Of a DNA stretch of 64,000 bases, positions 30,866 to 31,340 are shown piece by piece. The stretch's first letter is position 1. Each line of letters begins with the position of its first letter. The stretch is from sequence record NC_054919.1, one strand, 5' to 3'. The DNA comes from Escherichia phage vB_EcoM_G4507. The position numbers and the translations under genes were made by a program. The notes beneath the pieces are model-generated. The model was not told the origin of the DNA and did no database searches. It saw only the letters and a program-made list of their open reading frames with translations.

Positions 30866-31340
30866 TTATTTGAACGATTTAACGTACTGAATAGAACCTT
30901 TACTATTTACAAAGGCAATTTTACCATTTTTATTATACATGGTAGCAGTACGCTGATAGCCATAAGTTTGCTTACCAGATTGATAACCAACTAATGCAAA
31001 ATTATCTTCACCCATTTTATTCTGTTTAGCGCGAATGCGTTCATGACCATGTGCCATAAGAACCTTAGCATCACCAGTTACAATGGATCGACGAGTTTTT
31101 TCATCTTCAACTGTATTAACAAAGTCGTCAAATGAATCAAATTTAGCATGAGATTTATTATACAGTTTTCCATCTACTGCATAATTATATCCCTGTACAT
31201 CCATCTCAACTTCTGTACCATCATCCAATACAGCAGTAATTTTCTGTCCTTTTTTTAAATTTCAAAAGATCAGTAAAAGATTCAGCAATAATTTGAGAAT
31301 TAATAGCTGCTTCAGTGATAAATTCTTGATATGTTTTCAT
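30866..31340 (-). pseudogene. Internal protein (IPII/IPIII-like) with capsid-targeting sequence, disrupted by apparent frameshift in a T7 run
   Basis: ATG at 31340 encodes MKTYQEFITEAAINSQIIAESF... then hits a stop after 39 codons; body continues in a second frame (30866-31228) after the homopolymer at 31250-31256. Confidence 0.55.

What the first reader, a model, noticed from the sequence alone, without database searches (positions are those of the whole stretch)
31222..31340. Internal-protein gene with capsid-targeting sequence broken by a frameshift in a T7 homopolymer
ATG at 31340 encodes MKTYQEFITEAAINSQIIAESFTDLLKFKK, the T4 internal-protein targeting motif, then reaches a stop. The rest of the protein continues in a second frame (30866-31228) immediately after a run of seven T (31250-31256). 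A single-base length change in the run would fuse them into an intact protein of about 150 aa. It is either a homopolymer sequencing error or a genuine inactivation or slippage site.
Basis: seen in the sequence. Interest (0 to 1): 0.5.

Follow-up and report, generated by a model that had tools for sequence, protein, structure and literature searches.

The report
Frameshifted Ip4 internal-protein gene
In this T4-like phage genome, the gene for an injected head protein (Ip4) is split in two by one extra A in a run of six; this is an ordinary one-off frameshift or sequencing slip, not a conserved or programmed feature.

Summary
On the minus strand, the ATG at 31340 opens a 39-codon ORF. It carries the T-even capsid targeting sequence (MKTYQEFITE) and ends at TGA 31223-31221. 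The rest of the protein lies in the +1 frame (open 31261-30866). The join is an A7 run (T7 at 31250-31256 on the plus strand).

The gene is ip4 (Pfam DUF7412, PHROG 3155; 98% identical to Ip4 of phage K3). It sits in the variable internal-protein locus between lysozyme e and vs.8.

Close relatives carry A6 and an intact 157-aa gene. The window differs from ECP52 and fPS-2 in this gene by that single base. The A7 allele occurs nowhere else: 0 phage records against 103 with A6, and 0 in three contig collections. All 465 phage genomes with the gene read through the junction in one frame. It is therefore not conserved or programmed.

Whether the extra A is real cannot be settled without reads. I favour a genuine, very recent replication-slippage knockout of a dispensable gene (about 0.6). 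The library was Illumina, no other gene is frameshifted, and the genome also carries a unique amber codon in vs.3. An assembly or sequencing error (about 0.33) stays plausible because the assembly is uncurated: adapter sequence is left inside gene 5. Interest is low.

The parts
31221..31340 (-). 5' fragment of ip4. It has 39 codons plus the TGA stop. Residues 1-30 are authentic Ip4 and residues 31-39 (RTENYCCIG) are out of frame.
   Evidence: Aligned to intact ip4 of five phages.
31311..31340 (-). Capsid targeting sequence (CTS) MKTYQEFITE, with the gp21 cleavage motif I-x-E at residues 8-10.
   Evidence: T4 IPII and IPIII both begin MKTYQEFIAE. PMC9026906: the first 10 residues suffice for head targeting, residues 4 and 7 serve targeting, and residues 8 and 10 serve processing.
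31281..31289 (-). Probable second gp21 cleavage motif, I-A-E at residues 18-20. This is an inference.
   Evidence: E20 is nearly invariant and is preceded by [ILVM]-x in the homologue clusters that retain the N-terminus.
31250..31256 (-). Homopolymer A7 (T7 on the plus strand). This is the frameshift site, with one A more than the A6 of all relatives.
   Evidence: nine other sequences have A6; 0 phage records with A7 against 103 with A6.
30866..31261 (-). 3' fragment of ip4 in the +1 frame, 131 codons plus TAA. It holds the whole conserved DUF7412 core (residues 46-157 of the intact protein).
31346..31350 (-). Shine-Dalgarno-like AAGGA, 5 nt upstream of the ATG.
   Evidence: Read directly from the sequence. 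Identical in relatives (and its flanks).
31395..31424 (-). T4-type early promoter (GTTTAC...N...TAGTAT) upstream of ip4. It is intact in the window.
   Evidence: The same 30-nt element is annotated as a predicted early promoter in fPS-2 and SA20RB. Sequence read. The simple sigma-70 scan did not pick it up.
31429..31923 (-). Upstream neighbour: lysozyme gene e (164 aa).
   Evidence: Annotations.
30179..30721 (-). Downstream neighbour: vs.8 homologue, 543 nt as annotated in ECP52.

Best explanation
The ip4 gene encodes an injected internal head protein of T-even phages. In this record it is split by a +1 insertion that lengthens an A6 run (codons 29-30, AAA AAA) to A7.

The most likely origin is strand slippage by the phage DNA polymerase during replication (the Streisinger mechanism), in a recent ancestor of the sequenced stock. 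On this reading it is a genuine, very young loss-of-function allele of a gene that is dispensable on laboratory hosts.

Expected consequences, all inferred:
- Translation from the intact early promoter and ribosome-binding site yields a 39-residue peptide that still carries the capsid targeting sequence. It would be taken into the prohead core and cut by the gp21 protease into small peptides.
- The conserved 112-residue core is in the +1 frame, has no targeting sequence and has no good ribosome-binding site. It is therefore not packaged or injected.
- A small leak of full-length Ip4 is conceivable, either through +1 slippage of tRNA-Lys on AAA-AAA-A ahead of the rare AGG codon or through RNA polymerase slippage on the run.

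Shown here: the indel, its position, its uniqueness, and the intactness of all homologues. Inferred: the origin of the indel, the fate of the peptides and any leak.
For: The indel and its polarity:
- In the DNA alignment the only difference from ECP52 and fPS-2 in this gene is the extra A.
- Nine other sequences have A6.
- The A6 reading gives the family-invariant junction KFKK-GQK.

It is not shared or programmed:
- A7 36-mer: 0 hits in 50,697 phage records. Matched A6 35-mer control: 103 records.
- 0 hits for A7 in IMG/VR, JGI metagenomes and GTDB genomes.
- 465 of 465 phage records read through the junction in one frame.
- Neither window ORF product is found in the 153-billion-gene index.

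It is recent: the downstream frame is base-for-base identical to intact relatives.

Evidence that it is real rather than an error:
- (a) The adapter read-through left at 44638-44759 is Nextera/P7 with a poly-A tail, followed by a 55-nt end overlap. This points to a short-read Illumina de Bruijn assembly, where consensus indels in 7-nt runs are uncommon.
- (b) Over about 50 kb aligned to ECP52, length differences affect only three sites among 38 runs of at least 6 nt. The other two sites are intergenic and vary among relatives too. No other gene is frameshifted.
- (c) The same genome has other unique, unpurged changes relative to five relatives. These are a CAG>TAG amber in the vs.3 homologue, three missense changes, two tRNA changes and no synonymous ones. 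Five of the six are G:C>A:T. Substitutions of this kind are not typical consensus errors.
- (d) IP genes are dispensable on standard hosts (PMC9026906).
- (e) An independent Logan contig from run SRR23924977 carries a different ip4 allele broken by a +1 G in the adjacent G-run. It gives the same 39-aa stub.
Against: - A one-base change in a homopolymer is also the classic signature of a sequencing or assembly error.
- The assembly is demonstrably uncurated, with adapter sequence and a duplicated contig end inside essential gene 5.
- The allele is unique in all public data searched.
- The absence of any secondary decay fits an artefact as well as it fits a very recent mutation.
- No reads, coverage or quality values are available.
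- The platform is inferred from the adapter, not known.
Confidence: 0.6

Rival explanations
1. The extra A is a sequencing or assembly artefact. The phage really has A6 and an intact ip4, and the deposited consensus miscounted the homopolymer.
For: - The site is a homopolymer.
- The allele is unique: 0 of 50,697 phage records and 0 in three contig collections.
- The rest of the gene is identical to intact relatives.
- The assembly was not curated. 122 nt of Illumina adapter and poly-T junk, plus a 55-nt duplicated contig end, interrupt gene 5.
- The window also has a unique run length at the intergenic A6T6 site at 20599-20610.
Against: - The adapter type points to Illumina short reads, which rarely give consensus indels at 7-nt runs.
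- Only three sites among 38 long runs differ from ECP52, and the other two sites are naturally polymorphic.
- None of the other genes in the window is frameshifted.
- The genome also carries a unique nonsense substitution, which is hard to ascribe to homopolymer error.
Confidence: 0.33
2. The A7 run is a functional recoding or switching site. Either full-length Ip4 is made by programmed +1 ribosomal frameshifting (P-site tRNA-Lys re-pairing on AAA-AAA-A before the rare AGG codon) or by transcriptional slippage, or the A6GG/A5G3 tract acts as a contingency locus that switches Ip4 on and off in phage populations.
For: - In the A7 allele the codon after the run is AGG, which is rare in this genome (34 of 15,359 codons). 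tRNA-Lys can re-pair perfectly one base forward.
- A second, independent +1 event lies 1-4 nt away in a divergent allele.
- The RNA downstream folds somewhat better than shuffles (z = -2.8).
Against: - No relative has the interrupted arrangement: 465 of 465 phage records are in frame at the junction, 103 records carry the exact A6 sequence, and 0 carry A7.
- There is no Shine-Dalgarno-like stimulator upstream of the run and no Rfam recoding element.
- The phage encodes its own tRNA-Arg(UCU), which would relieve an AGG pause.
- A -1 shift leads to a stop; only +1 or -2 would restore the frame.
- The downstream fold is present unchanged in intact alleles.
- Seven A's is short for efficient RNA polymerase slippage (established knowledge, not tested here).
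- Two events among several hundred genomes is what a mutable run in a dispensable gene would give.
Confidence: 0.05

Closest known systems
Ip4 (IpIV) internal head protein of T-even phages (UniProt Q38388, phage K3; Pfam DUF7412; PHROG 3155)
   Same: The repaired product is 98% identical to K3 Ip4 and 99-100% identical to the ip4/ipIV genes of fPS-2, KMB42, T2, RB3, RB14 and RB51. It has the same 157-aa length, the same locus between e and vs.8, and the same early promoter.
   Different: In the window the gene is split after codon 30 by A6>A7. No other deposited copy is split there.
T4 IPII and IPIII (and IPI): injected inhibitors of GmrSD-type Type IV restriction enzymes
   Same: It occupies the same genomic slot as ipII/ipIII in T4, downstream of e and ahead of vs.8 (T4 also has denV before vs.8). 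It has a near-identical 10-residue capsid targeting sequence. By analogy it is expected to be packaged, cleaved by gp21 and injected with the DNA (PMC9026906, PMC3012670). Silas et al. 2025 propose that all proteins of the two Ip loci target GmrSD variants (PMC12373910).
Streisinger-type frameshift mutations at A-runs in T4 (classical lysozyme e and rII hotspots)
   Same: It is a one-base gain in a run of six A:T pairs in a T4-like genome, in the gene next to lysozyme e. The shifted frame ends at a nearby out-of-frame stop.
   Different: The mechanism is inferred from the sequence context only. The comparison with the classical hotspots rests on textbook knowledge and was not tested here.
Programmed +1 frameshifting (prfB type) and transcriptional slippage genes (dnaX, IS elements)
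   Same: There is a slippery run followed by a slowly decoded codon (AGG) in the A7 allele.
   Different: It is not conserved. The interrupted form is absent from all 465 phage records with the gene. There is no upstream Shine-Dalgarno stimulator and no known recoding RNA.

Membership tests
Ip4 / DUF7412 (PHROG 3155) internal virion protein | Full-length match to the family profile | tested here: met
The window's second ORF matches profile positions 39-158.
Ip4 / DUF7412 (PHROG 3155) internal virion protein | An uninterrupted reading frame of about 157 codons | tested here: not met
   The window has 39 + 131 codons in two frames. It is therefore a disrupted allele, or a miscalled copy, of the family rather than an intact member.
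T-even internal proteins (IP class) | N-terminal capsid targeting sequence of about 10 residues ending in the gp21 motif (L/I)-x-E | tested here: met
   MKTYQEFITE against T4 IPII/IPIII MKTYQEFIAE. Residues 4 (Y), 7 (F), 8 (I) and 10 (E) are conserved (roles of these residues from PMC9026906).
T-even internal proteins (IP class) | Location in one of the two variable Ip loci | tested here: met
   It lies between e (31429-31923) and the vs.8 homologue (30179-30721). T4 has ipIII and ipII (followed by denV) between e and vs.8.
T-even internal proteins (IP class) | Packaged in the head, cleaved by gp21 and injected with the DNA | not testable with these tools
   This needs virion proteomics or an injection assay. 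It is inferred from the CTS only.
GmrSD (Type IV restriction) inhibitors Ip1/Ip2/Ip3 | Demonstrated inhibition of a specific GmrSD variant | not testable with these tools
   No Ip4 target is mentioned in PMC12373910. The fold search gave no informative match.
Programmed ribosomal frameshift / transcriptional slippage genes | The interrupted arrangement is conserved among orthologues | tested here: not met
   0 of 465 phage records are interrupted at the junction. No A7 allele is present in any collection searched.
Programmed ribosomal frameshift / transcriptional slippage genes | A known stimulatory element (upstream SD-like sequence for +1; known recoding RNA) | tested here: not met
   No Rfam hit reached any family's gathering threshold. 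No GGAGG-like sequence lies upstream of the run. The downstream hairpin, z = -2.8, is also present in intact alleles.

The most novel reading that the evidence does not exclude
The A6GG / A5G3 tract at codons 29-31 of ip4 is a mutational contingency site. Phage populations would switch the injected protein Ip4 off and on by one-base slippage, for example to escape a host defence that senses Ip4. Alternatively, the A7 allele still yields some full-length Ip4 through +1 slippage at AAA-AAA-AGG. The only positive hint is two independent +1 events within a few bases of each other in divergent alleles: the window and Logan contig SRR23924977_48202.
Probability: 0.05. Interest if true: 0.5.

Novelty: already known. 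Interest (0 to 1): 0.15.

Why it matters
The practical value lies mostly in annotation and quality control. This record should carry ip4 as a frameshifted gene or pseudogene, or be corrected, rather than list two hypothetical ORFs. The adapter insertion in gene 5 shows that the assembly needs curation.

If the frameshift is real, the phage is a natural Ip4-null close relative of Ip4-positive phages such as ECP52, which is 99.9% identical over the 25 kb around ip4. Ip1, Ip2 and Ip3 were each recently shown to block a different GmrSD restriction enzyme, while the target of Ip4 is unknown. Such a pair could help find the host defence that Ip4 counters. That is a modest opportunity, not a discovery.

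Tried and rejected
- **Programmed recoding:** rejected, because no homologue shares the interruption and no stimulatory element was found.
- **A generally homopolymer-error-prone assembly:** not supported. Only three sites among 38 long runs differ from ECP52, and no other gene is frameshifted.
- **Finding the same allele, or the source genome, elsewhere:** tried with an exact A7 pattern in IMG/VR, JGI metagenomes and GTDB genomes, and with exact-product look-ups of both ORFs. All were negative.
- **Polarising the Logan contig's G4 allele with close relatives:** failed. The nearest deposited phages are only about 89% identical there, so the ancestral G3 is inferred from the family consensus alone.
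- **Independent translation of the downstream ORF:** considered unlikely. The TTG at 31228 and the ATG at 31204 have no convincing ribosome-binding site (read from the sequence). Reinitiation after the TGA cannot be excluded.
- **Repoila et al. 1994, the original description of the Ip locus:** not available in the library.

Full report
**1. The observation**

On the minus strand, the ATG at 31340 opens MKTYQEFITEAAINSQIIAESFTDLLKFKK. Nine further codons follow (RTENYCCIG), then TGA at 31223-31221, giving 39 codons in all. The +1 frame is open from 31261 to the TAA at 30868-30866 (131 codons) and begins NLKKGQKITAVLDDGTEVEMDVQG. The two frames overlap across a run of seven A, which is T7 at 31250-31256 on the plus strand. 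The only refinement is that the second frame is open upstream of the TTG at 31228, right through the run.

**2. Genomic context**

The window is a Tequatrovirus (T4-like) genome. The gene lies downstream of lysozyme e (31429-31923) and upstream of the vs.8, vs.7 and vs.6/GrcA homologues (annotations). In T4 this slot holds ipIII and ipII, followed by denV. It is one of the two variable internal-protein loci of T-even phages (PMC12373910, PMC3012670).

**3. What relatives have**

A 631-bp query found 621 phage records. The best records cover it with 630 bases. In fPS-2, ECP52, ACG-C40, SA20RB and KMB23 the region is annotated as a single 474-nt CDS, named 'internal virion protein' or 'Ip4 internal head protein'.

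The DNA alignment shows a single indel: the window has A7 where all five relatives have A6. Apart from that base, the window is identical to fPS-2 and ECP52 over the 486 aligned bases.

The intact product matches Pfam DUF7412 end to end (1-158 of 158, E 2.5e-95) and PHROG 3155 'internal virion protein' (1-157 of 157). The window's downstream ORF covers profile positions 39-158. A structure-library search returns Ip4 of phage K3 (Q38388) at 98% identity. The gene is therefore ip4, and phage T2's copy is annotated ipIV.

In an alignment of 14 homologue clusters down to 60% identity, K30, G31, Q32 and K33 are nearly invariant. The A6 reading is therefore the family's frame.

**4. Is the interruption shared?**

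It is not.
- A 36-mer in which every 28-base seed must span the A7 run finds no record among 50,697 phage genomes. The matched A6 35-mer finds 103, so the low-complexity filter is not the reason.
- The exact A7 pattern is absent from IMG/VR, the JGI metagenome contigs and the GTDB genome contigs. The A6 pattern occurs on one IMG/VR contig.
- A tblastn with only the first 45 residues, which span the junction, finds 465 records. All 465 cover at least 80% of the query in one frame.
- Full-length tblastn gives 467 of 469 records with at least 80% coverage.
- One exact intact 157-aa Ip4 sequence alone (cluster member P0015) is on 459 contigs.
- Neither window ORF product exists elsewhere in the gene index.

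This rules out a conserved, programmed frameshift.

**5. Error or real mutation?**

ECP52 (ON782582.1) is 99.9% identical over window 19000-43999. I aligned the whole window to it.

*Indels.* In the near-identical stretch from about 14 kb to 44.6 kb, the only indels are at 18037, 20605, 31250 and 36464. The first, second and fourth are intergenic or just upstream of a start codon, and their lengths or sequences vary among fPS-2, KMB40, CAM-21 and NiC89 as well. Among 38 homopolymer runs of at least 6 nt aligned to ECP52, length differences occur at three sites, and only the ip4 run is coding. An ORF-by-ORF comparison found no other frameshifted gene.

*The gene 5 artefact.* The same comparison showed gene 5 split at 44638-44759. 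The insert is T22, AAGAGACAGAGATGG, T20, then the Illumina P7 sequence, an 8-nt index, and the Nextera read-2/mosaic-end sequence. An exact 55-nt repeat of the preceding genomic sequence follows. Removing the junk and one repeat restores a 575-aa gp5.

This artefact cuts both ways:
- The assembly was not curated.
- The data were Illumina Nextera short reads assembled with a de Bruijn assembler. Adapter read-through ending in poly-A and a k-sized end overlap are typical of that. For such data, consensus indels at 7-nt runs are uncommon. That last point is general knowledge and was not tested here.

*The vs.3 amber.* The vs.3 homologue is truncated by CAG>TAG at 28799, a change unique to the window among six genomes.

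*Other unique changes.* Polarising all window-versus-ECP52 SNPs in 19-44 kb gives six window-unique changes: three missense, one amber and two in tRNA genes. None is synonymous, and five of the six are G:C>A:T. This looks like a stock carrying recent, unpurged mutations rather than base-calling noise. It makes a real slippage mutation in a dispensable gene plausible.

*Dispensability.* IP genes are known to be dispensable on laboratory strains (PMC9026906).

I therefore put a genuine mutation at about 0.6 and an artefact at about 0.33. Only the reads can decide.

**6. A second, independent case**

Homologue P0013 (112 aa, starting at M46) comes from Logan contig SRR23924977_48202. On that contig ip4 is again called as 39 aa plus 112 aa. 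The allele is clearly different, with a protein about 81% identical. Its junction reads AAA TTC AAA AAG GGG TCA AAA GAT TAC.

Deleting one G restores KFKKGQKITAVLDDG, so this is a +1 in the G-run immediately 3' of the A-run. It ends at the same out-of-frame TGA. No close deposited relative exists to polarise it.

Two events within a few bases among several hundred genomes fit a mutable homopolymer tract in a dispensable gene. They are also the only hint for a more interesting switch-like behaviour, which I rate at 0.05.

**7. Likely consequences (inferred)**

The early promoter (31395-31424, annotated in relatives) and the ribosome-binding site (AAGGA, 31346-31350) are intact, so the 39-residue peptide should be made.

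Its first ten residues match the T4 IPII/IPIII capsid targeting sequence at 9 of 10 positions. These include residues 4 and 7 (targeting) and 8 and 10 (gp21 processing) (PMC9026906). The nearly invariant E20, preceded by [ILVM]-x, suggests a second gp21 site. The stub would thus be packaged and cut into small peptides.

The conserved core would lack a targeting sequence and would not be injected.

Restoring the frame needs a +1 (or -2) shift. A -1 shift reaches a stop after about 25 codons, as read from the sequence. The A7 allele places the rare AGG codon (34 of 15,359 codons) after AAA-AAA, so a weak +1 leak is conceivable. Against that, the phage encodes tRNA-Arg(UCU), there is no upstream stimulator, and no known recoding RNA was found. 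The downstream fold (z = -2.8) is unchanged in intact alleles.

**8. What Ip4 does**

This is not known. The model is of moderate quality (pLDDT 68) and has no informative structural neighbour. A sequence search of the PDB found nothing meaningful.

By analogy, Ip4 is most likely another injected inhibitor of a GmrSD-type restriction variant. T4 Ip1, Ip2 and Ip3 each inhibit a distinct GmrSD Type IV restriction enzyme, and Silas et al. suggest that the other proteins of the two Ip loci do the same (PMC12373910). This was not tested here.

**9. Verdict**

This is a correctly observed, ordinary one-base homopolymer frameshift in a known, non-essential gene. It is unique to this record. It is either a very recent natural knockout, which I favour, or a consensus error. 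It is not programmed. Interest is low, and its main value is for annotation and quality control of this assembly.

Noticed in passing
window 44638-44814 (inside gene 5, ORFs 44072-44752 and 44768-45976, + strand): There are 122 nt of non-phage sequence here: T22, AAGAGACAGAGATGG, T20, Illumina P7 (CAAGCAGAAGACGGCATACGAGAT), index CAGCCTCG, and Nextera read-2/mosaic end (GTCTCGTGGGCTCGGAGATGTGTATAAGAGACAG). An exact 55-nt repeat of 44583-44637 follows. This is untrimmed adapter read-through plus a contig-end overlap left in the assembly, and it falsely splits the essential baseplate hub/tail lysozyme gene. Removing it restores a 575-aa gp5.
   Followed up: yes
window 28799 (vs.3 homologue, minus strand, about 28727-29005): A CAG>TAG amber codon truncates the 92-aa vs.3-like protein after residue 68. 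The change is unique to the window among six genomes compared.
   Followed up: yes
window 23153, 23907, 24802, 37588, 38046: These are further window-unique substitutions relative to ECP52 and up to four other phages. Three are missense: F>L, T>M, and A>T in the ORF at 24770-25069, which maps onto the gene annotated rI (lysis inhibition regulator) in ECP52. One lies in tRNA-Tyr (position 26, G>A) and one in tRNA-Leu (T-arm region, C>U). Counting the vs.3 amber at 28799, five of the six window-unique SNPs are G:C>A:T and none is synonymous.
   Followed up: partly
L014 1365-1839 (Logan contig SRR23924977_48202): A divergent ip4 allele is independently split into 39-aa and 112/121-aa ORFs. The cause is an extra G in the G-run immediately 3' of the A-run, and it ends at the same out-of-frame TGA as in the window. 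No close deposited relative was found.
   Followed up: partly
window 39708-39992 (minus strand): A second gene carries the capsid targeting sequence (MKTYQEFTSTTNAS..., 94 aa). It corresponds to the ipI-type internal protein locus annotated in relatives (annotations).
   Followed up: no
window 36552-36645 (minus strand): ARAGORN calls a 94-nt 'tRNA-Lys(UUU)' here. No relative annotates a tRNA at this place. It lies in a variable stretch where a 2-bp difference from ECP52 (36464) also creates an artificial 231-aa ORF. It is probably a false call.
   Followed up: partly
window 18030-18043: Just upstream of an nrdC-region gene, the window reads TAAAAAAATG on the coding strand. ECP52 has two more A, and fPS-2, KMB40, CAM-21 and NiC89 read TAAAAAATTG. 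The apparent start codon and spacer therefore differ between close relatives.
   Followed up: no
window 17240-17882 and 1-14000: A patch of 18 mostly synonymous SNPs against ECP52 lies within about 650 bp of otherwise near-identical sequence. The first 14 kb is much more divergent (up to about 6% per kb). This fits the mosaic recombination typical of T-even phages.
   Followed up: no
P0014 (Klebsiella phage vB_Kpn_AM_K5) and H155 (vB_Kpn_AM_K6): Two Klebsiella phage records have aberrant ip4 copies. One is a 184-aa product with an unrelated C-terminal part. The other matches only residues 1-66, in a 261-kb record. These may be further disruptions or assembly problems at a different site.
   Followed up: no
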